A stretch of 64,000 bases of DNA, from the NCBI GenBank assembly GCA_045656745.1, contig JAZORT010000023.1, positions 28,901 to 92,900 on the forward strand. Direction: 5' to 3'. Positions 8,340 to 41,546 of the stretch are shown here, piece after piece (within the stretch, counting starts at the first letter, position 1; each line of letters starts with the position of its first letter). The notes beneath the pieces were generated by a model. It was not told the origin of the DNA, made no database searches, and saw only the letters and a list, made by a program, of their open reading frames with translations. The DNA comes from Eubacteriales bacterium (lineage in GTDB: Bacteria; Bacillota; Clostridia; Oscillospirales; CAG-272). The position numbers and the translations under genes were made by a program.

Positions 8340-8597
8340 CGCCTTGGGTGAAAAAGATGCAATACATGTGAATTTTCGAGAAAAAATGAAGGAATATTTG
8401 CGAAAACCGGTAAATTTCCTCAAAATTAATATATAAATGACGGGTGCGCGAGATGAAGTTTGGAATTTATATGAAAAACAATGGAACTTTTGCGGTTGAG
8501 AAGAAAGGTTGTGTTTTGTTAAAATATTATTAGCCGACAACGGCTTTTTGGACATTTTTTGTCAATAATGCTAAAAGCAATTAGGAAATTCAGTGAT

Positions 8598-10022
8598 ATG
8601 AGAGTAGAAATTAAGAACGAAGAAGTGCTAAAGAAGATAAACGAGCAAAGCATGAAGGATAAGGAATACATATCCGAAAGATGGGCGTATCTTGAAAACG
8701 AGCTCTGTAAGGATGCAGGCAAGGAAGCCTCGCATGAAATCATCGAGGCTTTGAAGGAGATGTTCGCTTTGTTCACTCCGGAGCTTATAGACTGGTTTGC
8801 CAACCTTTACGATTCCGACATAGGAGCTTTCTATTATTCGAATTCTGCAAGAGATAATACTCAATTTCTTCCCGACGTGGAATCCACCGCACAGGCGCTC
8901 GGATTTATAGCCAGCACCGGAATGGCAGGAAAATGCGGCATGAGCATATCCCACGTTTTGCCGGAGAAAATGCGTAAGGCGATCGTTGCTTTTACAAAAG
9001 GGCTTCAGGACGAGAACGGATTCTTTTATCATCCACAATGGGGCAAAGAAAAAACCGATGCCAACCTGTCAAGACGCGGCAGGGACGTTGGAATGGCTTC
9101 AATAGTCTTTAAGCGCGTTGACTCAGCCCCCACCTACGATACTCCGAACGGTGATAAGGGCGACGGTATTTTGGCAGACGGCACGAGGATCGAGACGGTA
9201 GAGAAAAAGGAGCAGAAGGCTCCCGCGGCAGATCTCGTTATGCCCGAGCATCTTTCTACTAAGGAAAAATTTGAGGAATATCTGTCAACTCTTGATATAA
9301 ACGGCTCCTCTTACGTAAACGGCAGTATCCTGGAGGCGCAGGCGTTCCAGATAGCAACGAGAGACCGTCAGCTCGAGGCAGAGGGTGCGGACTATCGCCT
9401 CTCCCCCATTCTTCACAAGTGGTTAAACGAGCATCAAAATCCCAAAACAGGTCTTTGGAAGCTTTGTGACGAGCCCGACTTTGAGGGCGTTAACGGACTT
9501 CTCAAGATCACGAGCGTTTATAATAAGCTTCGTCTTGAACTTCCGAATCCGATAGTGGCTTTGCGATCTGCAATGGCTGCCATAAGCTTTTCGGAAGAGC
9601 CCGAGACGGTGTGCTTCGTGCTGAATCCCTGGTACGCCATCTCCGTTGTGGTTACTAACGCAACGACCTACAAGACCTCCGGGGATAAGGAGACTACCGC
9701 GAGGGAGATTGCCGAATTTAAGGCGGCACTCTTTGAGGAATATCCGAAGCTCGTTCGTACCGCAACCTTTAATATGAACAAGTTCCGCAAGGCAGACGGC
9801 TCCTTCTCTTATCTTCAGCACAGAACTGCCGCTTCCTCTCAGGGAATGCCGGTTGCGCTTATGGGCGAGAACGAGGGAGATATAAACGCAACTATCTGTA
9901 TCAGAAGCGTGCTCGGTCACGTTATGGACATTCTCGGACATTATTCCACCGTTCCCATGTATACCGAAGCGGACGTTATGAGATATATGGCGATAATCGA
10001 ACAAAACACAGGGAAGGAGTAA
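8598..10022 (+). CDS. Cassette 1 cytoplasmic protein, unknown helical-barrel enzyme family
   Basis: No signal peptide. Motifs LYDxxxGAFYYSNSARD, FLPDVEST, FYHPQWG, RRGRD, GVNGLLK, NPW, DGSFSY and EGDINAT are shared with five paralogues in the window. Confidence 0.85.
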   Translation: MRVEIKNEEVLKKINEQSMKDKEYISERWAYLENELCKDAGKEASHEIIEALKEMFALFTPELIDWFANLYDSDIGAFYYSNSARDNTQFLPDVESTAQALGFIASTGMAGKCGMSISHVLPEKMRKAIVAFTKGLQDENGFFYHPQWGKEKTDANLSRRGRDVGMASIVFKRVDSAPTYDTPNGDKGDGILADGTRIETVEKKEQKAPAADLVMPEHLSTKEKFEEYLSTLDINGSSYVNGSILEAQAFQIATRDRQLEAEGADYRLSPILHKWLNEHQNPKTGLWKLCDEPDFEGVNGLLKITSVYNKLRLELPNPIVALRSAMAAISFSEEPETVCFVLNPWYAISVVVTNATTYKTSGDKETTAREIAEFKAALFEEYPKLVRTATFNMNKFRKADGSFSYLQHRTAASSQGMPVALMGENEGDINATICIRSVLGHVMDILGHYSTVPMYTEADVMRYMAIIEQNTGKE

Positions 10023-10025
10023 CAG

Positions 10026-13000
10026 ATGAAGAAAAGAATATTATTCGCTTTACTCGCGCTCTTGCTCGTTTTTGCCCTCGTCGGATGTAAGGGAGATAAA
10101 TCGGCAAGCTCCGATACCTTGCAGGACGGCGGTAACGGCGGCACGGGCGGGGGAGAAAATTCGGGCGAAAGCCTTGCGATAGTAATTCCCGAGGACTTTG
10201 ATACCGACACGGTTTACGACCTTGCTTACTCCCTCTCGGAGTACGAGGTGAAAATAACCAACGATCAGAACGTTCAGGCTGACAGAAAGCTTATAATAGG
10301 CGTTAGCGGCTCAGAGCTTTACAACTCGGCAAAAAGATATTACGACAGACTTGATTTAAAGACTAATACCGATACGGCGTATCTCATTTATTCCGACGGC
10401 AAATCGGTCGTTCTCATTTTTGACGGTGAAAAGTACGGCGTTCGTGCGGCGGAGGCCTGTGCCGTTGAGAAGCTGAAGGAAGCGTATATTTCCGGCGGCA
10501 GATTCAGCGAGCTTAACTCGGGCGTTCTCTGCTCACAAGTCTTTGACGCCATTGAGTATCAGCAGACCTTGGACGAGGCTATGATAGAGGCGAATTGGGC
10601 CGAAGTCGAAAAGCAGCTGAGGGAAGAGATGGGTGATGAGAGAGCAGAGGCAACTCTCGCCGCCTTAAAGAAGCTTTACAGCTCTTACAGTGACGGGGTT
10701 ATCTCCTGGTTCGCTAACCTTTACGACCCCGTGACCGGCGGCTATTATTATTCAAATTCCGCAAGAAATTCCATAGGCTTCCTGCCAGACGTTGAGTCAA
10801 CGGCGCAGGCGCTCGGATTTATACGCTCGTCGGGTATGGCGGCGCACGTTGATAACGACCTTACCCGTCTTTTGCCCGAGGAGATGCAAAGAAGCATCGT
10901 AAACTGGGTAAAGAGCCTTCAAAGTGCTGAAAACGGCTACTTCTATCACCCGCAATGGGGTGTTGCAACCACTAATGCAAACGCCGCAAGACTCGGACGT
11001 GACGTTACTCAGGCAACTGCGGCGCTTGAATATCTTAACGCCCTGCCTACGTACGATGCGCCGAACGGCGTTAAGGGTGACGGCGTAGTAAAGGTGTCGG
11101 AGGTTTACCTTACCGCAACGCTGAAGAAAAGCTCTGCGGTTATGGTGTCAAGGGTCGTTGCGGTCGCATACAGCGGCCCGGCTCACCTTGCAGACAAAGC
11201 AAGCTTTGAAAGATACCTTTCAACCATAGATATAAACGCGAATTCCTACGTTAACGGAAACGTGCTGGAGAGCCAAGCTCCTCAGATCGTAGAGCGTGAT
11301 AAGCAGCTGCGCGAAGCGGGTGCGGACTACAGCCTTGTAGAAATACTCTACAATTGGCTTAATTCAAAGCAAAATCAGACAACGGGTCTTTGGACTACAT
11401 ACGATTACGTTGATTACGAGGGTGTAAACGGTCTTCTTAAAATCTCAAGCGTTTACCGCAAAATAGGAAAGCCTATTCCTAATATTACAAAGGCTGCAAA
11501 TGCGGCTCTTGAGGCTATAAGGTTTGAAGAACCCTACACCGTTTGCTTCTGGCTTAACCCCTGGTACGCTCTGTCCTTGGTGTTTGAAAATGCAAAAAGA
11601 TATTATAAGGACACGGCCGAGAGCGAGAAGATCGACGAGCTTAAAGAGACTCTTTTTGAAAATTATCCAGAGCTCGTTGAGGTAACTATTAAAAACATAG
11701 CTCACTTTGCGAAAAGCGACGGATCATACTCCTTCCAGCTTGAAAGCTCTGCCGCGACCTCTCAGGGAATGCCGGTTGCTCTCAGGCACTGTAACGAGGG
11801 TGACGTAAACGCAACCATAATTTCTATAACGAGTATTACCAACACCATAATGGATATGCTGGGATACGGCGGTGCAGTTCCTCTTTACACAAGATCCGAC
11901 TGGATGAGATATCTTTCAATTCTCGAGGATCTCGGCGCGATCATAAAGGACGAGGAGACCGAGTCCGAGCCTCTTGACTTTGAGGACGAGCTTATTCCCA
12001 CCGAGTTTAATATTTCCTTAAGCACTCCCGATGCGGTAGTCGAGGTTATTGACGACAGCGTTTACGGCGAGCAGAGCAAGGTAGTAAACTTCCTCTCTAA
12101 GCCACACGCCACAGATTCCGACGAGCTTGAGATATTCATTACTTCAAGAAAATCTAACTTTAACGGCTTTGCCTTTGAGGCAGACGTTAAGTTTGTAAAT
12201 TACGGCGAGTCAAACGCGGCGTACGACTTTAACTTCTGCGCCCAGGGCGACCTTGCCTACGTTTTCCAGATATACGCCTTTAACGAGTATTCGGGAGCGG
12301 GCTCTTGGAACTCTGACTCGGTGTATATTTCCCACGCAGGTGATAAGTACCAGAAGAACATCGCTCCGATAGGAGAATACTTCAAGCTCCGTGCGGAATA
12401 TATCGATTCTCCTTACGATTACACGGGTGACGGCGTTGCCGACCTTCTCGTTTGTATTTACGTCAACGGTCAGCTCGTTTCTATCGGAAACACTCCGTAC
12501 AGAGCGGGAACGGTGTATTCGGCGCAGGATATGAACAAGTTTGAGATAAGAGCCTTGAGAGGTACGGACGGCGAGGTGCGTATCGACAACCTTAAGGTTG
12601 AGCAGATACTCGTTGATATGGAGCCCGGCAAGCTTGGCTTCGGTAACAACAAGCTTCCGCTTCAGACCGTGGCGGAAATCGGCTCTGACGGTGACGTCGG
12701 CATAAAGGGCGGCGGCCTTGTAATAGAAAGCACCGATTCGGGCGCAGATACCCTTAAGATCTATCCTACCTTAAAGAACGAGACTCCTACCGCGATAGCC
12801 CTTGAGAGCGATATGGTATTTTACGCTGAGGGCGAGCTGTCCACCTGGGAACTTGCTATAAGAAGCGGAACGGCTACGGTCTACGGATATAAAATAGTCG
12901 TTACGGGCGATAGCTATTCGGCGGGAATTTACGAGCCGGGCTCGGTATATCTTGTTGGAACGAAGGATTCCTTCAAGGTTAGGGCGGCATCGGTTGGCGA

Positions 13001-14138
13001 AACGTTCAATCTTCGCACCGAGTATATGAACCCGGGTCTTGATTACACCGGTGACGGAAACCCCGATATTCTGGTAAAAATCAGCGTTGACGGCGAGAGA
13101 GCCGCAACCGGCTATACACCCATAAGCCTTCTTAATATGCCTGAGGCAAAAGCAGTAAGCGCCTACTACCTGACGGCAACGAAGGAAGCTAAGGGCTCTG
13201 TACGAATAGACAATCTTATTCTCGAGCAGTGCGCTACCCTTTACGACGAGGGCGGCGAAGAGATTGGCGGCGGTGACTCGGAGCTTGAGCCCCCGATAAC
13301 CGATTATACGGGCGGCTACACCTTTGAGGACGGTCTCGTTCCCGCAGGCGTTGCAACCTCGTCCGCAAACACCTCCGGCGTTATCCGCAACAATGTGAAC
13401 GGTGAATACAGCATGGTTTGGGCTGTTGCGATGACAACCGGAAGAGCCGAGACGAAATTTGCTCTCACCAAGATCGGTGACAATGCCGACACGCTGGTGT
13501 TTGACGTTATGATGAAGCTTGATGCAACCATTCAGTCAAACGGAATTGAGTTCTGGCTCGGTGACGAATACCGCTTTGATTTCCTCGTTTACGACGGAGA
13601 CGACGAGAGTAACGCGCAAAAGAACGGAGCAAATGCGGGGCTTGTTAAGATCGGCAGAGCGGGCGGCTCTAAGATAAGCGGCTGCACTCTTGCAGAGGAA
13701 GGCGAATGGTTCAGATTTACCGTTGTATATACCGCTACAGCAGGCGAGCGTATCGTTGATATTTACGTTGACGGCGTAAGAGTTGACGGCGAAAGAAGCG
13801 AGGGCAGCTATTCTGTAGAGAATATTACCGTCGCAAAGTTCTTAAGCTATACCACGGTTTCTACCGACGCTTATTTTGACAACGTTAAGGCCGAGAAGAT
13901 CGCAGCAGACGAGGTTATGCTTCCCGAGCCTTCTCCAAAGCCAACCCCCGACCCAACACCTGAACCCGAACCCGATCCCGAGCCCACCCCCGATCCCGAC
14001 AATCCCTCGGGCAGTGAAAACGGCGGCTTTGATTCCGAGGGCGGAGAGGGAAGCAATCCTTCGTACAATCCTCCCGGGGTTGAAAATTCACCCTTTGACG
14101 AGGGGGACAATGGCGGATGGACTCCCGAGCGTCCATAA
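10026..14138 (+). CDS. Cassette 1 giant lipoprotein (1370 aa): unknown barrel enzyme domain, lectin-like beta-sandwich modules, Pro-rich linker, acidic Trp tail
   Basis: Lipobox LVGC, same conserved motifs, three modules with F-E/D-x-D and terminal 'DN' strands, PEPDPEP linker, ends SPFDEGDNGGWTPERP. Confidence 0.88.
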   Translation: MKKRILFALLALLLVFALVGCKGDKSASSDTLQDGGNGGTGGGENSGESLAIVIPEDFDTDTVYDLAYSLSEYEVKITNDQNVQADRKLIIGVSGSELYNSAKRYYDRLDLKTNTDTAYLIYSDGKSVVLIFDGEKYGVRAAEACAVEKLKEAYISGGRFSELNSGVLCSQVFDAIEYQQTLDEAMIEANWAEVEKQLREEMGDERAEATLAALKKLYSSYSDGVISWFANLYDPVTGGYYYSNSARNSIGFLPDVESTAQALGFIRSSGMAAHVDNDLTRLLPEEMQRSIVNWVKSLQSAENGYFYHPQWGVATTNANAARLGRDVTQATAALEYLNALPTYDAPNGVKGDGVVKVSEVYLTATLKKSSAVMVSRVVAVAYSGPAHLADKASFERYLSTIDINANSYVNGNVLESQAPQIVERDKQLREAGADYSLVEILYNWLNSKQNQTTGLWTTYDYVDYEGVNGLLKISSVYRKIGKPIPNITKAANAALEAIRFEEPYTVCFWLNPWYALSLVFENAKRYYKDTAESEKIDELKETLFENYPELVEVTIKNIAHFAKSDGSYSFQLESSAATSQGMPVALRHCNEGDVNATIISITSITNTIMDMLGYGGAVPLYTRSDWMRYLSILEDLGAIIKDEETESEPLDFEDELIPTEFNISLSTPDAVVEVIDDSVYGEQSKVVNFLSKPHATDSDELEIFITSRKSNFNGFAFEADVKFVNYGESNAAYDFNFCAQGDLAYVFQIYAFNEYSGAGSWNSDSVYISHAGDKYQKNIAPIGEYFKLRAEYIDSPYDYTGDGVADLLVCIYVNGQLVSIGNTPYRAGTVYSAQDMNKFEIRALRGTDGEVRIDNLKVEQILVDMEPGKLGFGNNKLPLQTVAEIGSDGDVGIKGGGLVIESTDSGADTLKIYPTLKNETPTAIALESDMVFYAEGELSTWELAIRSGTATVYGYKIVVTGDSYSAGIYEPGSVYLVGTKDSFKVRAASVGETFNLRTEYMNPGLDYTGDGNPDILVKISVDGERAATGYTPISLLNMPEAKAVSAYYLTATKEAKGSVRIDNLILEQCATLYDEGGEEIGGGDSELEPPITDYTGGYTFEDGLVPAGVATSSANTSGVIRNNVNGEYSMVWAVAMTTGRAETKFALTKIGDNADTLVFDVMMKLDATIQSNGIEFWLGDEYRFDFLVYDGDDESNAQKNGANAGLVKIGRAGGSKISGCTLAEEGEWFRFTVVYTATAGERIVDIYVDGVRVDGERSEGSYSVENITVAKFLSYTTVSTDAYFDNVKAEKIAADEVMLPEPSPKPTPDPTPEPEPDPEPTPDPDNPSGSENGGFDSEGGEGSNPSYNPPGVENSPFDEGDNGGWTPERP

Positions 14139-14188
14139 AATATTTTCAGCAAACATATCTTTATTTTTACAAGAAAGGAGCGTGTAAG

Positions 14189-14323
14189 ATGAAGAAAACA
14201 AAAATCGTCTACGAAAATGCAGAGCTTTGCATTTTGCAGTTTGGTCAGCAGGATGTAATAGCAACATCGACCCCGTATGAAGATGGCGGAGATATGGGCG
14301 ATTGGACTCCCGAAAGAAATTAA
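14189..14323 (+). CDS. Cassette 1 small peptide (44 aa) MKKTKIVYENAELCILQFGQQDVIATSTPYEDGGDMGDWTPERN
   Basis: AAAGGAG RBS at 14174-14180; leader homologous to the peptides at 28373 and 38473. Confidence 0.8.
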   Translation: MKKTKIVYENAELCILQFGQQDVIATSTPYEDGGDMGDWTPERN

Positions 14324-14349: not shown

Positions 14350-16383
14350 ATGAAAAAAACATCTAAAATTTTAGCGTTGGTGTTTATGCTTGCGCTTGCA
14401 ACAACCTTGCTTTTCAGCATCGGCGCATCTGCCGAGAACGAAGCATCGCCTAAGATCGTATCCAAGAGCGCATACTTCGGCGATCAGACCTATCTCTATT
14501 TTGCAGTAAACAATTCTACTCTTGAAGCAGGTCAGGAGCTTGAGGTTCTTCTTTATACAGAAGACCCCAGAACAAATCCCGATGCAGAAAGCTTTAAAGC
14601 TGCTCTTTCCGAGATGGTTTATCCCTCAAAGCCTACCTATCCCGTGTATAAGTCATTTGGTATTCCGGCAAAGGCGATCGGTGATACCGTTTACGCTCTT
14701 GCACATGTGGTTGGCACAGAGCTTGATTACGATAACATAGTAACGTACAGTGTTCTCGAGTATCTCTACGAGCTTAAGTATATGACCAATCAGTCTACCG
14801 CAAAGGCAGAGCTCGCCGAGGCTCTTATAAACTACGGCGAAAAGTCCCAGAAGGCATTTGGCTATAAGACCGACGCTCTCGTTTCCGAGCTCTATTATGC
14901 ATACGTTTCCGTAGGAAGCTTTGACGGCGTGAATTATTCTGCTCTCGTTGCTCCCGGCGCGGCAAACAACACCGTAACCCCCGTAGCTGACGGCGTTACA
15001 AGATGGGCGGTTTATAAGTATGACGGGGACGGCAAGATGACCAAGACCGTCGTTGACGCAAACACCCCCGTTACCGTTGACGCTCACACCATAATCAAGC
15101 CCAGCGATGTTTACGACTTCGAGGAAAGCACCAATGCAATGAGCTACGTTGCAAGCGGCAAGGGCAAGCCTATCAGACAGAACGGTACTTACTCTGCGCT
15201 CACTATTGCACAGGATGCAGAGCACGGCAACGTTCTCGTACATAACGCGGCTAATAACAGAAACAGCGCAGAAGTTTATTTCGATCTCCTTACCAAGAAG
15301 GCAGGAGCCAACACCTTTGCCTTTGAGGCAGATATGAAGCTTGACGTTGTAAACGCAGCCGGCGATAAGCTCGTTCACTTCCAGCCCTACGGCTCCGTTG
15401 GCGCGGCTTACGACATTTACTTCCAGTTCTCCGAGGGCTCTAACATCAAGATCTTCGGTCAGTACAACAACGGATCTACAACAAACGAATCCAGCGTTGT
15501 AACCGAGGCAAAGGAAGGCGAGTGGTTCAAGTTCAGATTTGAATACAGCCTTACCGACAACGATTACGCACCCAACAACGGCGTTGCAAAAGACCTTTAC
15601 GTTAAGATATTTGTTAACGATGTGCTTGTAACCGTTGGTTATACTCCTTACTATGCAAAGGATACATCCAAGCACTACGCGGCAGATGCAGATCTCTGCG
15701 CATTCTTCCGTAACAGCGGCGATACCACTGCGGTTACCGCATACTTCGACAACGTTGTCGTTGAGCAGTGCAATACCGAGATCCCTGAGATCTACACCTT
15801 CGACGATATTCAGAGCTATCCCGGTGTAAGTGCAGGTACTATCGTAAACGACACAGACAGAGAGTCTAACGTTATTAAGTACACCTCTAACACAACGGCT
15901 ACAACCGATTACAGAACCTATCTCGTAAGCTCCGAGGAAGGCGCTAACGCAGTTGCCTTTGACGCTATGGTTAAGTTTGATGTTGGCGCGGCACAGCAGC
16001 AGAACCTCGAGTTCCTTATCGCAGGCGAAAAGAGCATTAAGGTAGTATTCTACGGATACGACGAAGCTCACACCAGCGCAGACTACAAGGGTAAGCTTCG
16101 TGTTGCAAACGCAGCAAATGCAGGCATCTCGCTCGTGAATAACATTGCTAACGAAAACGAGTGGTTCCACCTTCGTATAGAGTATATTCTTAACGATAAC
16201 GGCACAGCGACCGTAAACGTTATTGTAGACGGCAACGTTGTTGCAACCTCTAACGCAGCTACCGTTATCAATGTTTCCACCGTTAAGTTCGTTGCTACCG
16301 GACTTTACAAGGTTACTGATGCCTCCGTTGCGGCAAACGCATATCTTGACGATATTTCCGTAACCCGCTATGTAGCTGAATAA
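14350..16383 (+). CDS. Cassette 1 secreted protein (677 aa): shared N-terminal domain plus two lectin-like modules
   Basis: Sec signal ending ASA-E. 'GIPAK...YSVLEYLY...LINYG' domain shared with 28544 and 38654. C-terminal modules resemble those of 10026..14138. Confidence 0.85.
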   Translation: MKKTSKILALVFMLALATTLLFSIGASAENEASPKIVSKSAYFGDQTYLYFAVNNSTLEAGQELEVLLYTEDPRTNPDAESFKAALSEMVYPSKPTYPVYKSFGIPAKAIGDTVYALAHVVGTELDYDNIVTYSVLEYLYELKYMTNQSTAKAELAEALINYGEKSQKAFGYKTDALVSELYYAYVSVGSFDGVNYSALVAPGAANNTVTPVADGVTRWAVYKYDGDGKMTKTVVDANTPVTVDAHTIIKPSDVYDFEESTNAMSYVASGKGKPIRQNGTYSALTIAQDAEHGNVLVHNAANNRNSAEVYFDLLTKKAGANTFAFEADMKLDVVNAAGDKLVHFQPYGSVGAAYDIYFQFSEGSNIKIFGQYNNGSTTNESSVVTEAKEGEWFKFRFEYSLTDNDYAPNNGVAKDLYVKIFVNDVLVTVGYTPYYAKDTSKHYAADADLCAFFRNSGDTTAVTAYFDNVVVEQCNTEIPEIYTFDDIQSYPGVSAGTIVNDTDRESNVIKYTSNTTATTDYRTYLVSSEEGANAVAFDAMVKFDVGAAQQQNLEFLIAGEKSIKVVFYGYDEAHTSADYKGKLRVANAANAGISLVNNIANENEWFHLRIEYILNDNGTATVNVIVDGNVVATSNAATVINVSTVKFVATGLYKVTDASVAANAYLDDISVTRYVAE

Positions 16384-28372: not shown

Positions 28373-28501
28373 ATGAAAAAAATCGAATACGTAAGCACAG
28401 AGTGCGAAGTTGTGCTTATCGAAACAAGTGACATTATCGCAACATCAAACGCACCCGGCTCCAGCGGCGGAAATATGGACGATTCCTGGGATGAAGGCTA
28501 A
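28373..28501 (+). CDS. Cassette 2 small peptide (42 aa) MKKIEYVSTECEVVLIETSDIIATSNAPGSSGGNMDDSWDEG
   Basis: Not in the ORF track. AAAGGAG RBS at 28361-28367; homologous leader; first gene of the operon. Confidence 0.82.
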   Translation: MKKIEYVSTECEVVLIETSDIIATSNAPGSSGGNMDDSWDEG

Positions 28502-28543: not shown

Positions 28544-30178
28544 ATGAAAAACACATTTACCAAAATCGCGCTTCTCGTTCTTTCTCTCGCTCTCCTTGCT
28601 TGCGTTCCCTTCGCAGTAAGTGCTGAGGAGACTTCGAACGAGGTTAAGATCCTTGCAAAGAACGTAATTTACGAGGATCAGATCAGATTAGTATTCGCAG
28701 TAGACGCAACCGTTGAGGAAGCTAACAACGTTAAGGTTGTTTACAAGTGGGGCGAGGATGGCGAAGTTAAGAACGCAGTTCTTCTCGATCCTACCGTTTC
28801 AGTCAACCTTTATAATGACCATCCTGCTTTCGCAATTGACGGCGTTCCCGCAAAGGAGCTTGCAGCTACCGTTTACGTAACTGCTTTTACCGGTGACGCT
28901 CCCGCAGACGATGCAGATTGGCTTACCTATTCCGCAGCAGAGTACTTCTATGCGAAGCTCTACAAGGACGGCTTTATTAACATGACCGAGGCAGACGGCG
29001 ATGACTATAACAGAAAGTGCCTCTACCAGACTCAGCTCGAGCTTGGTAAGTACGCACAGCTCGTTCTTAACTACAACGAAAATCAGCTTGCAACCGATTA
29101 TTCCTATATCTTCACCACTAACGAGAGCGTAAGCTTCGGCGGCAAGAGTACCGCTTTCGGCTACGGCGAGCTTAGCCTTACCGCAACCTCCGAGCTTGCT
29201 ATCTCGGGTTGGACTCTCACCGATATGAACGGAGAAGAAACCACTCTTGAAACCGCTATCCTCACTGCTAAAGGCGTTTATAGCGTAGAGCCTATCTTCG
29301 GCGGTCACGATTGCGCTGATGAAAATCCTGTAGACCACCTCTGTGATTCTTGCGGCGACCCTTTAAGCAGCTGTGCTACTAACGATAACAATCACCTCTG
29401 CGATCTTTGCGGCAAGGTAGCTTCCACTTGTGTTGACGCAGACAAGAACGGTCAGTGCGATGTTTGCTTTGTGTACAATTTCAACGTTGAAAGCATGGCG
29501 CAGTCCGAGCAGTTGAACATCTATAACGTTGCTTGGAACGGACAGGATACTACCGTAGAAGATAATTTCTCTTCTACCACGACTCTTACCACGTCTCAGA
29601 ACCGTCCCAGCGGCTTCGACAACGGCGAATGGTTCTGCCTTGCTGCCAATCCCACCGACGCTGCCGACACCGTTCTTAGATTCAATTCGATTTACAAGAA
29701 AGATAATACCGAGAAGTCCCACATAACCTTCGCTCCTAATGTTGAGGTTGAAAACGGCGACCTCGTTGTATTCGAGTTTGACTTCTACCATGTCAGCGGC
29801 GCTTCCTCAAAGAACCCCATTCGTTTCTACGATATTTATGCAGACGGTACGGCTTCTGCCGACTACACACCTACCTATACGAATGCGAATAACGTTGCAG
29901 TTTCCATAGGAACAACCAAACCTACGTTTGCTAAGGAAACTTGGGTAAGATACCGCCTCGTTTATAACAACTCTAACGATACTATTTATTGGTATTACAG
30001 CGTTGACGGCGGTGCAACCTATGCGTTTGCCGGCACAAACGCTTATAAGGCTGCAAGTGATATAGTTGCTGTCGGATTCAGAGGAAACAACGTATGGAAC
30101 GGCAACTCCACGCTTCTGTTCGACAACATTAAGTGTGTAAAGACTACCGCTGAGGCTTACGGTATCACCCTTAACTAA
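28544..30178 (+). CDS. Cassette 2 secreted protein: shared N-terminal domain, Cys/His-rich repeats, lectin-like module
   Basis: Sec signal ending VSA-EE; 'GVPAKEL...YSAAEYFYAKLY'; HLCDxCG repeats. Confidence 0.85.
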   Translation: MKNTFTKIALLVLSLALLACVPFAVSAEETSNEVKILAKNVIYEDQIRLVFAVDATVEEANNVKVVYKWGEDGEVKNAVLLDPTVSVNLYNDHPAFAIDGVPAKELAATVYVTAFTGDAPADDADWLTYSAAEYFYAKLYKDGFINMTEADGDDYNRKCLYQTQLELGKYAQLVLNYNENQLATDYSYIFTTNESVSFGGKSTAFGYGELSLTATSELAISGWTLTDMNGEETTLETAILTAKGVYSVEPIFGGHDCADENPVDHLCDSCGDPLSSCATNDNNHLCDLCGKVASTCVDADKNGQCDVCFVYNFNVESMAQSEQLNIYNVAWNGQDTTVEDNFSSTTTLTTSQNRPSGFDNGEWFCLAANPTDAADTVLRFNSIYKKDNTEKSHITFAPNVEVENGDLVVFEFDFYHVSGASSKNPIRFYDIYADGTASADYTPTYTNANNVAVSIGTTKPTFAKETWVRYRLVYNNSNDTIYWYYSVDGGATYAFAGTNAYKAASDIVAVGFRGNNVWNGNSTLLFDNIKCVKTTAEAYGITLN

Positions 30179-30426: not shown

Positions 30427-31710
30427 ATGCATAATAAAAACATTTTGACAAAAGAAAGAATAGACTCTCTTCGAGAAATAAGAAACAAAAAGAGAGAAGA
30501 ATCCTTTGCTGCTCTCGTTCCCGCTATGGGCGAGGAAGCGGTGGAGGAGATAAGAAAAATCTACTCAATGTTTGACGAGAGAATGCTCGTTTGGATGGCA
30601 AACCTTTGGGAGCCTAACATTGGCGGATTTTATTATTCCAATTCCGCAAGAGACCACGAGGGCTTTCTTCCCGACCTTGAGTCCACCCATCAGGCGGTGA
30701 TCTTCATTACCGAGCAGTGCGGACTTGTCTCTAAGGATCAAATGCATATAACTGCAATCCCCGAGAGATTTGCTTCAAAAATGGCAGACTTTGCCTATGA
30801 TCTTCAGGACGAGGACGGCAGCTTCTATCACCCACAGTGGGGTAAAAACATAACCGCAACAAGAAAGGGCAGGGACGGTGCCGCGGCCTGGCGTCTTATC
30901 GAGCCTCTTGGCAGAAAGTGCAAGTATCTTCGCCTTTCACAGCGCCCGAAAAACGAGGAAACAAAGGCGGCATTGCCCGAATTCCTTGCCTCTACCGACA
31001 CACTTTTGGAATGGCTTGAGGGTCAGCGCATAGAAGAGCGCTCCTATCAGTTTGGTCATTATATAAACTCCACCTCAACAAACTTCTTTGTGGCGGGTCA
31101 GGAATACGTTGACACCCTGGTCGCTTGGCTTAACTCCAAAAACCGCGCGGATAACGGACTTTGGGAGCCGCAGGTTAACTACTCTTCGGTAAACGGACTT
31201 ATGAAGCTCAGCCTTTGCTACCCCGGCTTTGGCGCAAAGCTCCCCTATCCCGAAAAATCCTATGAGAGCGCAAGAGCCGCAGTGCTTTCCGATGAGCCTC
31301 TTACCTTTGCCTGCGAATATTACAACGCCTGGGCGGCTGTTAACAACTCCATAAAATCTATGGATGGCGAAATGGCAGAGGCCTACCGCGAAAAGCTCAA
31401 GCAGGATGCCCCCGAAATGATAAGAGTTACGGGCGAAAAAATGGCAAAGTGCAGAGTTGACGACGGAAGCTTTGCTTACTTTACCGCCGAGTCGGGAAAA
31501 GCCTGCCCTCGCTCGCAGGGTGCGCTTGTGGGCCTTGAAAATGTGAGAGAGGGAGACATAAACGGCAACGGTTGCTCGACCAGCGCCCCCTTGCGTCACC
31601 TTTTTGCGGCATTCGGTGTTGAAAAACCCACGATGTTTACCTCTGAGGATGCCGAGCTTATCTTCGAGCTTATGGACAATGCGGTCTCTCCTGTTAAAAA
31701 ACCGCTTTAA
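30427..31710 (+). CDS. Cassette 2 cytoplasmic unknown barrel enzyme
   Basis: GGFYYSNSARD, FLPDLEST, FYHPQWG, RKGRD, VNGLMK and EGDING motifs; no signal peptide. Confidence 0.85.
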   Translation: MHNKNILTKERIDSLREIRNKKREESFAALVPAMGEEAVEEIRKIYSMFDERMLVWMANLWEPNIGGFYYSNSARDHEGFLPDLESTHQAVIFITEQCGLVSKDQMHITAIPERFASKMADFAYDLQDEDGSFYHPQWGKNITATRKGRDGAAAWRLIEPLGRKCKYLRLSQRPKNEETKAALPEFLASTDTLLEWLEGQRIEERSYQFGHYINSTSTNFFVAGQEYVDTLVAWLNSKNRADNGLWEPQVNYSSVNGLMKLSLCYPGFGAKLPYPEKSYESARAAVLSDEPLTFACEYYNAWAAVNNSIKSMDGEMAEAYREKLKQDAPEMIRVTGEKMAKCRVDDGSFAYFTAESGKACPRSQGALVGLENVREGDINGNGCSTSAPLRHLFAAFGVEKPTMFTSEDAELIFELMDNAVSPVKKPL

Positions 31711-31742
31711 CATTCCTTTTTAAAATAAAAGCGAGGAAAATT

Positions 31743-34700
31743 ATGAAAAAAATTCTTTTACTTACACTTTCCCTCCTTCTTATTCTTGCGATGTGCGTTT
31801 CGTGCAACAAGAAGGACGGCGAAACAAAGCCCTCGGACGATACAAATGCTCCGAGCGGTGACAATACCGACACACCTCCGTCGGGCAGCCTTGTCTGGTC
31901 TGAAAATACAAGCACCTTGATATTGGTTAGCGACAGCGATAATTACGGAATTCTCGAGGTTTTGTCAACTCATGTTTACGAAACGTCCGGAAAAATACCC
32001 CAAGTCAAGGGTGAGGATGTGGATGGTAATTACGGCAGAATTATAGTTGGTGACAACGGCTCCGATATTGCGAAAAAGGCTTACAAAAAGCTTGACGATT
32101 ACGCAAATCTCCAGGGTCTTTTCGATTCAAAGAGAAGCGCATGGCTGATTTGGTCGGAAAACGGCACTATCGTTATTGCATACAGTGACCTTCTTGCTAA
32201 AAAGGACGCGATAGACTACATTGCCAAAAATTACACCACCGCGGCTTTCGGCCCCGGTAACGGCACTCTCTCAAAGGCAATATTTGATATTGAAGAATAT
32301 CTCACCGTCTTAAGGGAGACCGAGCAGGCTCCTTATATGCAGGAGCTTGGCGCAATTCTCGGCGCAGACGCTCTTGAAGCCTTTAAAAAGCTTTATTCTA
32401 TTTATGACGAGGACCTTTACGTTTGGCTTGCTAACCTTTGGTGTCCCGATAACGGCGGCTTCTATTATTCCGCCTCTGCGAGAAACAACGAGGGCTTCCT
32501 TCCCGACCTTGAATCTACCGGCCAGGCGCTGAAGATAATGGATAACGCAGGACTTTCGGTGGCTCTTGGCGGCAGCTGGCAGAAAATGCTTCCTAAGGAC
32601 ATTGCCGAAAAGCTGGTTAAGTTTGCATACGATATGCAGGCAGAGGACGGATATTTCTATCATCCCCAGTGGGGCACCGGAATTTCCACCACCAGAAGAG
32701 GCCGTGACGCAGGCTGGGCAAAAACCATTCTTTCGGGTCTTGGCGCAACGCCGAAATATCCTTACCTTAGCGGCATAACGACCCCCACCGCATCGCTCCA
32801 CCTTACCACCTCCCTCAAGGGAGGCTCCTCTGCGGAACTTGTTTCTAAGGTGATGCTAACTGCGGCAAGTAACTCAAAGTATGAATCCGAGGCAAGCTTT
32901 ATTGCCTACCTTGATTCGCTTAAATTTAACGAAAACTCCTATTCTGCGGGTAACGTAATAAACTCCACCACCTCCGAAATCAAGAAGGCGGGATATTGGC
33001 AGACTCTCAGAGATTATCTTACCGAGCATCAGAATCCCGAGAACGGTCTTTGGGAGGACGAGGTAACCTATCAGTCTGTTAACGGCTTAATGAAGCTTTG
33101 CACCTGCTTTGGCTCCTCTTATCCCAATGCTGAAAAGGCTCTCGAGTCGGCAATGCAGATACTTATGCGTCCTATTGACGACGAGCTTACGGGTATAACC
33201 TATGTTTACAACCCCTGGGTTGCTATTGCAAACCTTCTCCACGCGGTAAGCGACGAGACTGAGACTACCCTTCGTCAGATGCTTCGCGATAACGCAAAGG
33301 AAATATTCCTTATGACTGCCGAAAAGCTCTCTGCTTTTGCAAAGGATGACGGCGGCTTCTCCTACCTTAGAGATTATTCCTCTCCCTTCTCTCAGGACTC
33401 GCTCGTTGCAGTCAGCGGAAGCGTTGAGAGTGATGTAAATGCTACTACTATCGCTATCTCTACCGTTGTGCGTTATATGGAAGAGGTATTCGACCTTAAA
33501 TTCCCCCCTCTTTACTCAAGATACGAGGGAATCTATTTCGTAGATACCCTTACAAGCATGGGTACTATCATAAAGGACAGCCTTCTTGCCAAGGACCCCG
33601 AGGTTATCACCTTTGACGAATACGAAGATGATGACATTAAGGTCGACGCCAATGTTGTAACCAATCCTCACCCCGCTGTCGAAAACAGAATAGGTGATGC
33701 TGAGACCGACGGCAGCGAATATATCTGGTTTGAGGCAGCCCTTGTTCCCAACCCCAAAAAGGAGGCGGGCAACACCGACTATGTACTCTACGCGGGTGAT
33801 AAGACAAGACCCGAGGACAGCGGATACGATAAGCTTGTTGCAGAAACTGCAAGCTCTACCATATTTAACATTACCAACCTGGGCGCACCCGGAAACTGTT
33901 ACGTTTTCGAGGCAGATATGCTCTTCGGCGGCAGCGAAAGCAGCACAAGCCCCGTAGCTCAGCTTAACTTTGTAAGGGATACCGGCTCTGACCCCCTTAT
34001 CTCTGCTTGGGTAGACTTCTATCAGTACACGAGAGGTGGTCAGAATTACCTCAGAATTCAGGAATACTTCGCAGGTGCTGACGGCGTTAAGGATACCGAG
34101 GTCGTTGCGGGACTTCCCGTTGACGATTGGTTCAAGCTCCGCATCGAGATGTATAAGGATTACTCCGGCGAGGGCGGCGAGCTTAAAATAATGCTCAAAT
34201 TCTTCGTTAACGACAAGTTCGTAGGCATCTCCGACTCGGGTCACTACCAGAAGGGCGCATACAAGGACTTCCTTGTTAACGCAGTTAAGCTCTCTTATTA
34301 CAGACACGCAGCATCTTCCTTCTATCTTGACAACATCTATGTTGCAAAGAAGAATCTTACCTATGAGCTTGGTAAGTATGAGTCTGACGCGGTTGAAAGA
34401 CCCGTTAGCGACAAGAAGGTTTATGACTTTAATGACGGACTTATTCCCAACGGTCCCGACATCTGGACCGAGATGTACTACCGTAACGAGGACGGCGAGC
34501 AGGTTATGATGAACGCTGCCGATTGGACCAACGACCTTGATTCTCAGTTCGGCGGCTCCAAGGGTCCCGGCGCAAAGGTTTATATTGCAGACGACCCCGA
34601 GAGCGCGGCAAATAAGGTGCTTCGCGCATATTCCTTCAACACCAAGACCTCTTCCTATAAGGCAACAATGCATGTTGACGGAATGTTAACGAAGGAGGGA

Positions 34701-38472: not shown

Positions 38473-38613
38473 ATGAAAGAAAAAATAAGCTACACCGAAG
38501 CGCTTATCGAAGTTGTAAGCCTTGAAATTTCGGACATCGTAACCTCCTCGTCAAATTCGGGCGGCAGCTGGGGCGGCTCGGGCGGCAACATAGACCCGGA
38601 CGGCTGGGTTTAA
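38473..38613 (+). CDS. Cassette 3 small peptide (46 aa) MKEKISYTEALIEVVSLEISDIVTSSSNSGGSWGGSGGNIDPDGWV
   Basis: Not in the ORF track. AAAGGAG RBS at 38455-38461; homologous leader; first gene of the operon. Confidence 0.82.
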   Translation: MKEKISYTEALIEVVSLEISDIVTSSSNSGGSWGGSGGNIDPDGWV

Positions 38614-41525: not shown

Positions 41526-41546
41526 ATACTGCCGAAAGGAAAAGAT

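What the first reader, a model, noticed from the sequence alone, without database searches (positions are those of the whole stretch)
14085..14323. Giant lipoproteins end in a tail that copies the core of the neighbouring small peptide
Seen: the 1370-aa lipoprotein ends, after a Pro-rich linker, in SPFDEGDNGGWTPERP. The 44-aa peptide encoded about 50 bp downstream ends in STPYEDGGDMGDWTPERN. The 1873-aa lipoprotein ends, again after a Pro-rich linker (37320-37364), in GSSSGNLDGEGWED. This matches its own cassette peptide (GSSGGNMDDSWDEG) and the cassette 3 peptide (GGSGGNIDPDGWV). The DNA shares only a short core (TGGACTCCCGA in cassette 1), so the match is kept mainly at protein level, and the WTPER tag is specific to cassette 1. 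Inference: an acidic Gly/Trp tag is displayed both on a membrane-anchored enzyme and on a free peptide. It could be a docking epitope in a cohesin/dockerin-like surface assembly, a modification or ligation site, or a decoy or signal. I do not know a described system with this design.
Basis: partly seen in the sequence, partly recalled or inferred. Interest (0 to 1): 0.9.

Follow-up and report, generated by a model that had tools for sequence, protein, structure and literature searches.

The report
Trp tag shared by lipoprotein and peptide
Giant surface lipoproteins and the small peptides encoded beside them end in the same short acidic tryptophan tag, which co-varies locus by locus and is predicted to plug into the neighbouring secreted protein, so it looks like an undescribed docking system on a gut bacterium's surface.

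Summary
The window's genome (1.75 Mb, 60% complete) holds 22 peptides of one family. Each has a conserved leader and a variable acidic Gly/Asp core with Trp near the end. Twelve of 22 giant lipoproteins end in the same kind of tag.

Tail and neighbouring peptide core match locus by locus. The cognate score sum is 425 against 286±23 (0 of 100,000 permutations). It repeats in three other species: 417 against 276±25.

Codon use shows no recent gene conversion, so the match is kept at protein level.

Nearly every peptide gene sits just upstream of a secreted protein with a private N-terminal domain (20 of 21 by script). A three-chain model puts the last eight peptide residues into that domain. The score is ipSAE 0.68, against 0.00 in three controls.

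The leader resembles Firmicute lasso-peptide leaders. Across the order it co-occurs 12 of 12 with a PqqD / HPr-kinase-like / nucleotidyltransferase cluster, and lies 0.1-1.9 kb from it in four genomes.

Best reading: a tag-and-receptor docking system. The lipoprotein tail tethers the secreted protein. The exported peptide is a free copy of the tag. Binding and peptide export are not shown. I found no description of such a system.

The parts
8559..10022 (+). Cassette 1: cytoplasmic (alpha/alpha)6 toroid protein, 487 aa, no signal peptide
   Evidence: ORF. It is 48% identical to residues 159-634 of the neighbouring lipoprotein. A paralogue folds as a toroid at pLDDT 94.
10026..14138 (+). Cassette 1: giant lipoprotein, 1370 aa, with lipobox, toroid domain, jelly-roll-like repeats, Pro-rich linker and tag
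   Evidence: Pfam finds 0 families.
13920..14084 (+). Pro/Glu/Asp/Thr/Gly-rich flexible linker before the tag
   Evidence: Read directly. The only NCBIfam hits to this stretch are low-complexity ones.
14085..14135 (+). C-terminal tag of the 1370-aa lipoprotein: acidic Gly run, then W-T-P-E-R-P
   Evidence: It is the best match of 22 peptide cores to peptide 1 (score 52, rank 1).
14189..14269 (+). Peptide 1 leader (27 aa): Y-x-x-A-x-L ... D-V-I-A-T-S
   Evidence: Alignment of 22 paralogues: D22 and S27 are invariant, Y8 and T26 at least 90%. AAGGAG lies upstream.
14270..14323 (+). Peptide 1 core (17 aa plus stop), ending W-T-P-E-R-N
   Evidence: Orthologues in other metagenomes keep W-T-P.
14350..16383 (+). 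Cassette 1: secreted protein, 677 aa, with signal peptide, private N-terminal domain (about residues 29-252) and two jelly-roll-like domains
   Evidence: The N-domain HMM hit has E 6.6e-61 and the peptide ends 29 bp upstream.
28373..28501 (+). Peptide 2 (42 aa plus stop), core ending W-D-E-G
28544..30178 (+). Cassette 2: secreted protein (544 aa from the ATG at 28544) with the N-terminal domain
30427..31710 (+). Cassette 2: cytoplasmic toroid protein, 427 aa (the one folded)
   Evidence: pLDDT 94.1. VIA top hit is protein farnesyltransferase beta, Z 14.6, rmsd 4.3, 287 residues aligned. Foldseek has no hit at E<=1e-3.
31743..37364 (+). Cassette 2: giant lipoprotein, 1873 aa
37320..37361 (+). 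C-terminal tag of the 1873-aa lipoprotein, ending G-W-E-D
   Evidence: It scores 47 against peptide 3 (rank 1) and 40 against peptide 2 (rank 3 of 22).
38473..38613 (+). Peptide 3 (46 aa plus stop). Its last eight residues (N-I-D-P-D-G-W-V) are the part placed in the complex model
38654..40120 (+). Cassette 3: secreted protein, 488 aa. N-domain residues 37-43, 49, 51, 78, 81, 83, 85, 130, 133-134, 137-138, 147, 151 and 154 form the predicted tag pocket. Residues 256-486 are a ConA-like jelly roll
   Evidence: Complex. Fold. Jelly-roll matches.
40188..41525 (+). Cassette 3: cytoplasmic toroid protein, 445 aa
41547..45680 (+). Cassette 3: giant lipoprotein, 1377 aa, without a tag. It ends at the last strand of a jelly-roll-like domain
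   Evidence: It is sister of the tagged 1873-aa protein at 100/99 support.

Best explanation
The shared ending is a docking tag. It is about 8-16 residues long, acidic and Gly-rich, with an N-[IV]-D-x-x-G-W type centre and a locus-specific end.

Its receptor is the private N-terminal domain of the secreted jelly-roll protein encoded right after each peptide gene. On the giant lipoprotein the tag hangs from a long flexible linker. There it would hold the otherwise free secreted protein at the cell surface.

The small gene encodes a RiPP-type precursor.
- Its conserved leader has a lasso-like Y-x-x-[AP]-x-[LIV]-E motif. Thr is penultimate, and small residues sit at positions -3 and -1.
- The leader would be read by one trans-acting cluster: a PqqD chaperone, an HPr-kinase-like protein, a signal-peptidase-like protein, an NTP_transf_5 nucleotidyltransferase and an ABC-2 exporter.
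- The cluster would cut off the leader and export the core. It might also tailor a C-terminal Thr or Ser.
- The free core would then occupy the same pocket, as a competitor, a release factor, or the sole ligand where the lipoprotein has no tag.

Because tail and core must fit one pocket, they change together.

Shown: the shared tag, its co-variation at protein level, the gene pairing, and the co-occurrence of leader and cluster.
Modelled only: binding of the core to the N-domain.
Inferred: binding of the tail to that pocket, processing and export of the peptide, and the purpose of the competition.
For: 1. Family size. 22 peptides with one leader and variable cores. 12 of 22 giant lipoproteins are tagged.

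2. Cognate excess. In the own genome the sum is 425 against 286±23, with 0 of 100,000 permutations reaching it. In 11 pairs from three other species it is 417 against 276±25, with 0 of 100,000.

3. Locus-specific endings on both partners.
- W-T-P-E-R in window cassette 1.
- W-T-K on contig C37.
- L-D-F-D-x-D-G-G on C12.
- G-G-W-T-N in another species.
- In orthologous cassettes of three species the pair shifts together: D-D-S-A-W in both partners in one species, and S-D-[IV]-D-x-S-A-W in both in another.

4. Coordinated change on a tree. The cassettes of contig C9 and window cassette 1 are sisters (95/86). Only the latter has the P-E-R extension, and it has it on both tail and peptide.

5. No recent gene conversion.
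- Of 117 identical residues other than Trp and Met, 59 share a codon. Codon usage predicts 47-50.
- Nucleotide identity is 62% over 247 aligned codons.
- Ser AGC/TCN, Arg CGT/AGA and Leu CTT/TTA switches occur.

6. Gene pairing.
- 21 proteins in the genome carry the N-domain. 20 have a peptide within 4 kb upstream and 17 within 330 bp. The 21st is an ORF-start artefact.
- By comparing the coordinates, at least 16, 16 and 11 such adjacent pairs lie in genomes G035, G061 and G105.

7. Complex model. The model supports binding; it does not show it.
- Chains: toroid, mature secreted protein, and peptide 3 as the partner.
- ipSAE 0.68 (runs 0.64, 0.68, 0.68). Best of 3 controls 0.00, including the control with the secreted protein replaced.
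- The mark was reached by 58 of 80 solved complexes and 2 of 110 mismatched pairs.
- Runs agree in at least 36% of contacts. Partner pLDDT is at least 38.
- Only peptide residues 39-46, the tag, touch with low error.

8. The pocket.
- It mixes conserved positions (N39, A51, Y130 and position 133) with variable ones.
- Mean conservation is 0.51 against 0.41 for the rest of the domain, p=0.03.
- Position 133 is Glu in 14 of 17 paralogues. The three without Glu belong to the W-D-E-G and W-D-E-N peptides, and to peptide 3, whose gene lies about 1.1 kb downstream of the lipoprotein gene ending in G-W-E-D.

9. No solved relative. The N-domain profile finds no solved sequence at E<=1, so the pass is unlikely to be memory of a solved complex.

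10. Leader and cluster.
- In 60 other genomes of the order, all 12 with leader peptides have the HPr-kinase-like gene. 7 have the gene only and 41 have neither.
- The peptide lies 0.1-1.9 kb from that gene in 4 genomes of 4 families.

11. Published context. [quoted passage not shown]
Against: - No binding, export, cleavage or expression was measured. No RNA run holds the locus.
- The complex job used my own shallow paralogue alignments and three chains, unlike its calibration. Partner pLDDT is low (38-40). Only one cassette was modelled. The tail itself was never modelled.
- Ten of 22 giant lipoproteins have no tag, so tethering cannot be the general role of the cassette.
- The peptide has no signal peptide. 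Its route out of the cell rests on co-occurrence alone. Within the genus the cluster is nearly universal (100 of 121 genomes), so it does not discriminate there.
- Several genomes have many leader-type peptides but few N-domains: G043 has 27 against 3, and G063 22 against 1. The leader family therefore serves other partners too.
- The HPr-kinase-like and peptidase-like assignments are weak: E 3e-4 and 6e-4, far below the curated cut-offs.
- Codon sharing is slightly above expectation (p=0.017 and 0.050), so some old exchange between tail and core is not excluded.
Confidence: 0.55

Rival explanations
1. Signal reading. The processed peptide is a secreted, cassette-specific signal of pheromone or quorum type. 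The lipoprotein tail is a tethered decoy, or a source of the same signal after proteolysis. The N-domain of the secreted protein acts as a sensor or sink rather than a structural dock.
For: - The architecture is a conserved leader with a hypervariable core, as in exported signalling peptides and RiPPs.
- One trans-acting processing cluster is present.
- One toroid domain is fused to an HTH domain (684 aa, contig C9 5357-7409). This hints that toroid proteins can act as cytoplasmic sensors.
- Each cassette has its own core.
Against: - No histidine kinase or known peptide receptor lies in the cassettes.
- The modelled partner is a secreted, unanchored protein, which cannot pass a signal into the cell by itself.
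- 22 separate signals in a genome of about 2-3 Mb would be without precedent.
Confidence: 0.15
2. Shared-enzyme reading. Tail and core are substrates of one modifying enzyme and co-vary because each cassette's enzyme has its own specificity. The modification could be at Trp or at the C-terminal Thr/Ser, and the enzyme could be the cassette's own toroid protein, which has a cytoplasmic copy and a lipoprotein-borne copy.
For: - The best structural matches of the toroid are protein farnesyltransferase beta (Z 14.6) and GGTase-III beta (Z 13.4). These enzymes act on C-terminal peptide tails. Lanthipeptide cyclase domains also appear at Z about 10.
- Every cassette has a cytoplasmic toroid next to the peptide gene, and a second toroid on the lipoprotein that carries the tail.
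- 12 of 22 peptides end in Thr or Ser. That is the target of the HPr-kinase homologues of lasso clusters (PMC8498205).
Against: - Z of 13-14 for an all-helical toroid is within the range the tool calls a common arrangement. Foldseek has no hit at E<=1e-3.
- No conserved Cys/His metal site stands out among the invariant residues.
- Epimerases and glycoside hydrolases match about as well. The neighbours are sugar enzymes: GH20 and, by my own reading of their termini, GH1-like twins.
- Prenyl donors are not expected outside the cell.
Confidence: 0.15
3. Cytoplasmic reading. The peptide stays in the cell. It binds the N-domain of the not-yet-exported secreted protein, as a chaperone, an anti-folding factor or an inhibitor. 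The tail replaces it after export.
For: - The peptide has no signal peptide.
- Peptide and secreted protein are encoded 30-90 bp apart in most cassettes.
- The model places the core in the N-domain.
Against: - Sec substrates cross unfolded, so a pocket formed by strands and helices would not exist before export.
- A strongly conserved leader tied to a PqqD cluster points to processing and export.
Confidence: 0.1
4. Relic reading. The likeness is a by-product of segmental duplication or gene conversion between the 3' ends of neighbouring genes, and has no function.
For: - Tail and peptide lie 50 bp to 2.7 kb apart in most cassettes.
- Codon sharing is slightly above expectation: 59 against 47-50 of 117.
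Against: - Nucleotide identity is only 62%.
- Ser, Arg and Leu codon-family switches occur at identical residues.
- The pairing persists and shifts together in four species.
- Orthologous peptides keep length and tag.
- The tag is the part that docks in the model.
Confidence: 0.03

Closest known systems
Cohesin-dockerin assembly of cellulosomes (recalled knowledge)
   Same: - A short acidic module sits at the C-terminal end of a flexible Pro/Thr-rich linker and docks into a beta-sandwich receptor on another secreted protein.
- The pairs are type-specific.
- The system assembles glycan-active proteins on a Gram-positive surface.
- A D-x-N-x-D-like run in the tag recalls a calcium loop (my reading, untested).
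   Different: - No dockerin or cohesin family is detected.
- The tag is about 8-16 residues, not a ~70-residue duplicated F-hand module.
- The tag is on the membrane anchor and the receptor on the free protein.
- The predicted pocket uses two helices as well as strands.
- A free peptide twin of the tag is encoded beside the receptor. Cellulosomes have nothing like it.
Firmicute lasso-peptide precursors with HPr-kinase and nucleotidyltransferase tailoring (paeninodin, pseudomycoidin; PMC8498205 and PMC7533575, passages read)
   Same: - The leader has aromatic-x-x-P/A-x-[LIV]-E and a penultimate Thr.
- A PqqD-type chaperone is the best NCBIfam hit (lasso PqqD, 5.6e-9).
- An HPr-kinase-like gene, an NTP_transf_5 nucleotidyltransferase and an ABC exporter sit in one cluster.
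- Many cores end in Thr or Ser.
   Different: - No lasso cyclase and no B2 protease were found (the genome is 60% complete).
- A signal-peptidase-like gene stands where B2 would be.
- Only 4 of 22 cores have Gly1 with Asp/Glu at positions 7-9 (my count).
- The precursors are dispersed 22-fold across glycan-type cassettes.
- The core is mirrored on a 1400-2600-aa lipoprotein.
C-terminal peptide recognition by dedicated domains, for example PDZ domains reading aromatic C-terminal motifs (recalled)
   Same: A few C-terminal residues with an aromatic anchor and the free end are read by a pocket next to a beta-strand.
   Different: No PDZ family is detected. The receptor is an unclassified ~225-residue domain. 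Ligand and receptor are encoded as a diversifying gene pair.
Surface glycan-utilisation machines of Bacteroidota (PUL 'utilisomes', recalled; a levan utilisome chain appears among jelly-roll fold matches)
   Same: - Repeated cassettes combine a surface lipoprotein, a secreted or surface glycan-binding jelly-roll protein and a cytoplasmic partner.
- They sit next to sugar enzymes: GH20 and, by my own reading of their termini, GH1-like twins.
- They are strongly expanded in one gut genome.
   Different: - The host is a Gram-positive type, with no SusC/SusD.
- All core families are unannotated.
- Assembly would rest on a peptide tag.

Membership tests
Cohesin-dockerin | Dockerin module (about 70 aa, duplicated calcium-binding segment; Pfam dockerin family) on the tagged protein | tested here: not met
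   Pfam-A scan of both tagged lipoproteins finds 0 families at E<=0.01. The tag is about 16 residues.
Cohesin-dockerin | Cohesin domain on the receptor | tested here: inconclusive
   Pfam finds 0 families in three secreted proteins. The profile finds no solved sequence at E<=1. The N-domain fold was not searched on its own, and the fold searches were filled by the C-terminal jelly roll.
Cohesin-dockerin | Calcium-dependent binding | not testable with these tools
   Only a D/N-rich run in the tag is seen.
Lasso peptide (RiPP) | Leader with Y-x-x-P-x-L type motif and penultimate Thr | tested here: met
   In the alignment of 22 peptides, Y8 and T26 are at least 90% conserved, position 11 is mostly A/P, and position 13 is mostly L/I/V. 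Compared by eye with the published Firmicute leaders in PMC7533575.
Lasso peptide (RiPP) | PqqD-type RRE chaperone | tested here: met
   PF05402 at 4e-15, over its cut-off. The best NCBIfam hit is lasso PqqD at 5.6e-9, below that model's cut-off. Binding to these leaders was not tested.
Lasso peptide (RiPP) | Lasso cyclase (asparagine-synthetase-like) and B2 transglutaminase-like protease | tested here: not met
   PF00733 gives only two short PP-loop matches, covering 45-59 of 354 model positions. PF13471 gives none. None lies in the fully read cluster. Caveat: the genome is 60% complete.
Lasso peptide (RiPP) | Core starting Gly (or Ala/Ser/Cys) with Asp/Glu at positions 7-9 for the ring | tested here: not met
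   4 of 22 cores fit Gly1 plus Asp/Glu at 7-9 (my count on the cores).
Sortase / exosortase-type C-terminal sorting signals | Motif followed by a hydrophobic helix and a basic end | tested here: not met
   The tails are acidic, have no hydrophobic stretch, and end 0-6 residues after Trp.
RRNPP-type peptide signalling | Cytoplasmic TPR receptor, often HTH-fused, next to the peptide gene | tested here: not met
   The neighbouring cytoplasmic protein is an (alpha/alpha)6 toroid, not a TPR solenoid. One HTH-toroid fusion exists elsewhere in the genome.

The most novel reading that the evidence does not exclude
A diversifying 'tag and socket' code builds surface enzyme complexes in a Gram-positive gut lineage. 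It would work in three parts.

- Each cassette encodes a private ~10-residue Trp tag on a giant lipoprotein and a matching socket on a secreted jelly-roll protein.
- Each cassette also encodes a RiPP-derived free copy of the tag. The cell exports it, perhaps phospho-glycosylated at its last Thr or Ser, to load, release or exchange the docked protein.
- That would make it a peptide-controlled mini-cellulosome, born from a lasso-like RiPP pathway that lost its cyclase.
Probability: 0.3. Interest if true: 0.9.

Novelty: categorically new. Interest (0 to 1): 0.82.

Why it matters
If right, this is a new way for Gram-positive bacteria to assemble secreted proteins on their surface. A very short, evolvable C-terminal tag is read by a dedicated socket domain, and a ribosomal peptide copy of the tag can compete for that socket.

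- It would link RiPP biosynthetic machinery to protein docking rather than to antibiotics. Four large unannotated families would gain a first functional handle: the toroid, the socket domain, the giant lipoproteins and the peptides. By my rough estimate of about 9 kb per cassette, they fill on the order of a tenth of this genome.
- It would also offer dozens of natural, mutually distinct tag/socket pairs. Whether they are truly orthogonal is open, and it is a directly testable question with synthetic peptides and small recombinant domains.

Tried and rejected
**Family and structure look-ups that gave nothing**
- Pfam and NCBIfam on the three window peptides at E<=10 gave no hit.
- Pfam on nine large cassette proteins gave no family.
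- NCBIfam on five of them gave only low-complexity linker hits and lipoprotein signal hits.
- The toroid profile against solved sequences gave nothing meaningful, best E 0.068.
- The ESM Atlas search for the N-domain returned only unnamed clusters at 0.88, below the level the tool treats as more than a lead.
- The fold of the N-domain alone could not be searched.

**Lasso peptide proper: rejected.** No cyclase or B2 protease was found, and most cores lack the ring residues.

**Double-glycine export.** No Peptidase_C39 was found in the 60%-complete genome.

**Toroid as the peptide's partner.** In the three-chain job, the control that kept the toroid and replaced the secreted protein scored 0.00. 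That is no support, and it is not evidence against binding.

**Recent gene conversion.** Not supported by codon use.

**Collecting cassette-1 orthologues**
- With the lipoprotein's last 412 aa in genome contigs, and with the secreted protein's first 300 aa in metagenome contigs, no relative was confirmed.
- Orthologues came instead from the genome search and the fetch from genomes.

**Expression.** No RNA holder is listed.
- Laying DNA contigs of four gut-metagenome runs showed a few variants. One changes Gly34 to Glu in peptide 1 (14289 G>A, runs X1 and X3).
- No listed change falls in the covered W-T-P-E-R codons.
- Cover was patchy and says nothing more.

**Literature.** Three full-text searches found nothing on such a tail/peptide pair, or on a PqqD / HPr-kinase / nucleotidyltransferase cluster without a cyclase. 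This library lacks most subscription journals, so 'not in print' is only as strong as these searches.
- PMC7533575 and PMC8498205: passages read.
- PMC10368454: only the start of the abstract in a listing.
- Supplements are closed and were not seen. Supplementary Figure 2 of PMC7533575, on the distribution of accessory genes, may bear on the cluster.

**Within-genus test.** The HPr-kinase-like gene is in 100 of 121 genomes, so it cannot discriminate there.

Full report
**What is at the coordinates**

The 1370-aa ORF 10026-14138 starts with a signal peptide and lipobox. It runs through a Pro/Glu/Asp/Thr-rich linker from about 13920. It ends in an acidic Gly-rich tag with W-T-P-E-R just before the stop.

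Fifty bases on, behind an AAGGAG-type site, a 44-codon ORF (14189-14323) ends in the same W-T-P-E-R. The two DNA stretches share only TGGACTCCCGA, and Arg is CGT in one and AGA in the other.

Two more peptides of the same build lie at 28373-28498 and 38473-38610. The 1873-aa lipoprotein (31743-37364) ends in a tag like their cores. The third giant lipoprotein (41547-45680) has none.

**The cassette and its scale**

The window lies on contig C23 of a 1.75-Mb assembly in 46 contigs, 60% complete.

A six-frame scan found 22 peptides of one family.
- The leader is about 25 residues: Lys-rich start, Y-x-x-[AP]-x-[LIV]-E-[IV], then D-[VI]-I-x-T-S. D22 and S27 are invariant. Y8 and T26 are at least 90% conserved.
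- The core is 12-25 residues rich in Asp, Gly, Asn and Ser. It mostly ends G-G-W-T or a variant, and often has a second Trp 9-12 residues earlier.

Around the peptides sit three large families that no library names.
- 22 giant lipoproteins of 1278-2615 aa.
- 26 cytoplasmic proteins of 399-504 aa, homologous to residues ~160-650 of the lipoproteins.
- About 20 secreted proteins of 450-700 aa.

The usual order is lipoprotein, cytoplasmic protein, peptide, secreted protein. The window shows circular permutations of that order.

The cytoplasmic protein folds with pLDDT 94 as an (alpha/alpha)6 toroid.
- Foldseek gives no hit at E<=1e-3.
- VIA ranks protein farnesyltransferase beta first (Z 14.6, rmsd 4.3, 287 aligned). 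Sugar epimerases, terpene cyclases, lanthipeptide cyclase domains and glycoside hydrolases follow at Z 8-12. The tool warns this range can be a common arrangement for helical folds.

The secreted protein has a confident N-terminal domain at residues 31-255: a beta-sandwich, two helices and a small beta unit. Its C-terminal ConA-like jelly roll matches PL7/PL36 alginate lyases, GH16 enzymes and sialidase lectin domains (Foldseek down to 2e-7, VIA Z 12-14).

**The tag is shared, and it co-varies**

Twelve of the 22 giant lipoproteins end in the tag. In the scan for acidic Trp ends, the only long ORFs found were these lipoproteins.

I scored each tail (last 20 residues) against all 22 cores.
- The neighbour is the best match for 5 of 11 tails.
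- The cognate sum is 425 against 286±23. 0 of 100,000 random draws reached it, and 2 of 100,000 did when only the 11 cognate peptides were permuted.

Private features recur on both partners: W-T-P-E-R, W-T-K, L-D-F-D-x-D-G-G, G-N-V-x-D and W-[DE]-[DE].

The same holds in other species of the genus.
- One relative has G-G-W-T-N plus a second Trp on both partners.
- In 40 fetched loci of three genomes, a script found 11 further pairs. Their sum is 417 against 276±25 (0 of 100,000), and 7 of 11 rank first. These pairs are not all independent, because some are orthologues of the window genome's cassettes.
- Orthologous cassettes shift together. One species has D-D-S-A-W on both partners. Another has S-D-[IV]-D-x-S-A-W on both. 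The window's genome has a third variant.

On a tree of the toroid domains, the tag needs four gains or losses, of which at least two are forced by starred branches. The tagged 1873-aa and untagged 1377-aa proteins are sisters. Cassette 1 and its sister on contig C9 differ by the P-E-R extension, which is present on both tail and peptide of cassette 1 only.

**Not a copying artefact**

Over 22 pairs and 247 aligned codons, 139 residues are identical but nucleotide identity is 62%. Of 117 identical residues other than Trp and Met, 59 use the same codon, against 47.1 expected from genome usage (p=0.017) and 49.7 from local usage (p=0.050). Ser AGC/TCN, Arg CGT/AGA and Leu CTT/TTA switches occur at identical residues.

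Orthologous peptides from other metagenomes keep their length and tag at 73-91% identity. The likeness is therefore held by selection on the protein, with at most old and minor sequence exchange.

**What reads the tag**

The tightest genomic partner of the peptide is the secreted protein.
- An HMM of its N-domain finds 21 proteins in the genome.
- 20 have a peptide within 4 kb upstream and 17 within 330 bp. The 21st is an artefact of my ORF start.
- The domain does not occur in the lipoproteins or the toroid proteins.
- Two tandem peptides on contig C37 (19461-19708) are the exception.

Across 120 other genomes of the genus, 35 have the domain. By comparing the coordinates, G035, G061 and G105 hold at least 16, 16 and 11 adjacent peptide/N-domain pairs. 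The tool scores at most 21 candidates per genome, so counts saturate.

I then spent the single complex job on a competition design, using paralogue alignments: toroid, mature secreted protein and peptide 3 of cassette 3, with the peptide as the scored partner. The result supports binding; it does not show it.
- ipSAE is 0.68 (runs 0.64, 0.68, 0.68).
- The best of three controls is 0.00, including the control in which the secreted protein was replaced while the toroid stayed.
- The mark was reached by 58 of 80 solved complexes and 2 of 110 mismatched pairs.
- Runs agree in at least 36% of contacts. Partner pLDDT is at least 38.
- The calibration used other alignments and two chains, so these counts hold only roughly.

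Only the last eight peptide residues, the tag, touch with low error. They contact residues 37-43, 49, 51, 78-85, 130-138 and 147-154 of the N-domain.
- That patch joins the most conserved motifs of the domain with variable positions. Mean conservation is 0.51 against 0.41, p=0.03.
- Position 133 is Glu in 14 of 17 paralogues. The three exceptions go with W-D-E-type endings or with the neighbour of the G-W-E-D tail. This is suggestive charge matching on very few cases.
- The domain profile finds no solved sequence at E<=1.

**Where the peptide comes from**

The leader looks like Firmicute lasso-peptide leaders, as listed in PMC7533575. Lasso leaders are known for a penultimate Thr (PMC10368454, start of the abstract in the listing).

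The genome has one PqqD gene outside the SCIFF-type maturase. It sits in a cluster on contig C45 made of:
- an ABC-2 ATPase and permease;
- an HPr-kinase-related protein (weak, 3e-4);
- PqqD (4e-15);
- a signal-peptidase-I-like protein (weak, 6e-4);
- NTP_transf_5 (7e-39).

No precursor gene was seen in the cluster among ORFs of 30 aa or more. No lasso cyclase or B2 protease was found.

In 60 other genomes spread over 30 families of the order, 12 have leader-type peptides and all 12 have the HPr-kinase-like gene. Seven have the gene only and 41 have neither. In four genomes of four families the peptide lies 0.1-1.9 kb from that gene, and in one it is directly followed by the kinase-like gene and PqqD.

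I infer that the window's peptides are dispersed precursors served in trans by this cluster.
- The small residues at -3 and -1 of the T-S site would suit a signal-peptidase-type cut (my reading).
- In published lasso clusters, the HPr-kinase homologue phosphorylates the precursor's C-terminal Ser and the nucleotidyltransferase adds hexose to that phosphate (PMC8498205). Twelve of the 22 peptides here end in Thr or Ser.

None of this processing was tested. Within the genus the cluster is near-universal (100 of 121 genomes), so it does not discriminate there. Some genomes have many leader-type peptides with other cores and few N-domains, so the leader family serves more than this one partner.

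**Synthesis**

The best-supported reading is a tag-and-socket system.
- The socket is the N-domain of the secreted jelly-roll protein.
- The tag exists in a tethered form, on the end of a lipoprotein's flexible linker, and in a free form, the core of a RiPP-type peptide.
- Both are kept matched to the socket by selection.

The tethered form would hold the secreted protein on the cell. The free form would compete with it, or would be the only ligand in the ten cassettes whose lipoprotein lacks a tag.

What the competition is for is open: release, loading, exchange or signalling. What the cassettes act on is also open. The neighbours (GH20, and by my own reading of their sequences GH1-like twins, sugar isomerase-like and AraC-type genes) and the lyase-like jelly rolls point to glycans.

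I put 0.55 on this reading as a whole. The co-evolving tag itself is close to certain. Socket binding is about 0.6-0.65. Processing by the PqqD cluster is about 0.5.

**Novelty**

No component has a family name, and three literature searches found nothing like it. It works like cohesin-dockerin but fails both of its sequence tests. The peptide looks like a lasso precursor but lacks the cyclase, the protease and the ring residues. I know of no system in which the core of a ribosomal peptide is mirrored on the end of a large surface protein.

Noticed in passing
whole genome G000; in the window 8559-10022, 10026-14138, 30427-37364 and 40188-45680: The (alpha/alpha)6 toroid domain occurs in 52 ORFs of a 1.75-Mb, 60%-complete genome: 22 giant lipoproteins, 26 stand-alone cytoplasmic proteins and 4 of other sizes (594, 684, 713 and 829 aa). 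By my rough estimate of about 9 kb each, the cassettes take on the order of a tenth of the assembly. More than 1300 unnamed relatives exist in public data.
   Followed up: partly
G000 contig C9 5357-7409 (locus L002 358-2410): A 684-aa protein joins what looks by eye like an N-terminal XRE-type HTH to a toroid domain (residues 221-678). This suggests that a toroid can serve as a cytoplasmic sensor domain.
   Followed up: no
G000 contig C45 27675-32813 (locus L091): A RiPP-type cluster in which no precursor gene was seen: ABC-2 transporter, HPr-kinase-related protein, PqqD, signal-peptidase-like protein and NTP_transf_5. No lasso cyclase or B2 protease. The HPr-kinase-like gene is present in 100 of 121 genomes of the genus and 19 of 60 elsewhere in the order.
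   Followed up: partly
window 28544-30178 (secreted protein, about residues 255-330); also before the tags of two giant lipoproteins on contigs C3 (minus strand) and C28 (minus strand): Repeated Cys-rich D-x-N/D-x-D-x-x-C-D-x-C-G knuckles, looking like small metal-binding or calcium-binding inserts. Not identified.
   Followed up: no
window 18316-19662 and 19722-21068: Two tandem 448-aa genes with identical printed N- and C-termini (GH1-like by eye). This looks like a recent tandem duplication between cassettes 1 and 2.
   Followed up: no
G000 contig C37 19461-19708 (locus L019 463-709): Two tandem leader-type peptides with atypical cores, one ending G-G-K-W and one with Trp five residues before the end. 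They lie after a 1038-aa secreted protein and have no N-domain protein downstream.
   Followed up: no
genomes G043 and G063 (same genus): 27 and 22 leader-type peptide matches, but only 3 and 1 N-domain matches. Most matches cover the leader only. The leader family carries other cores that presumably have other partners.
   Followed up: no
locus L096 (G139) and locus L102 (G174), other families of the order: Leader-type precursors also end in acidic Gly runs with a terminal or near-terminal Trp. In G139 the precursor lies beside the HPr-kinase-like cluster; in G174 it lies on a different contig from that gene. The Trp-ended core may therefore be older than the giant-lipoprotein cassettes.
   Followed up: no
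window 14289: Contigs of two gut-metagenome runs read A for G, changing Gly34 to Glu in the variable part of the peptide 1 core. No listed change falls in the W-T-P-E-R codons where they are covered.
   Followed up: partly
window 45792-47390: A GH20 family protein (catalytic domain 2e-10, GH20C C-terminal domain 1.2e-55) lies directly after cassette 3. It is the only Pfam-named gene among the ten scanned.
   Followed up: no
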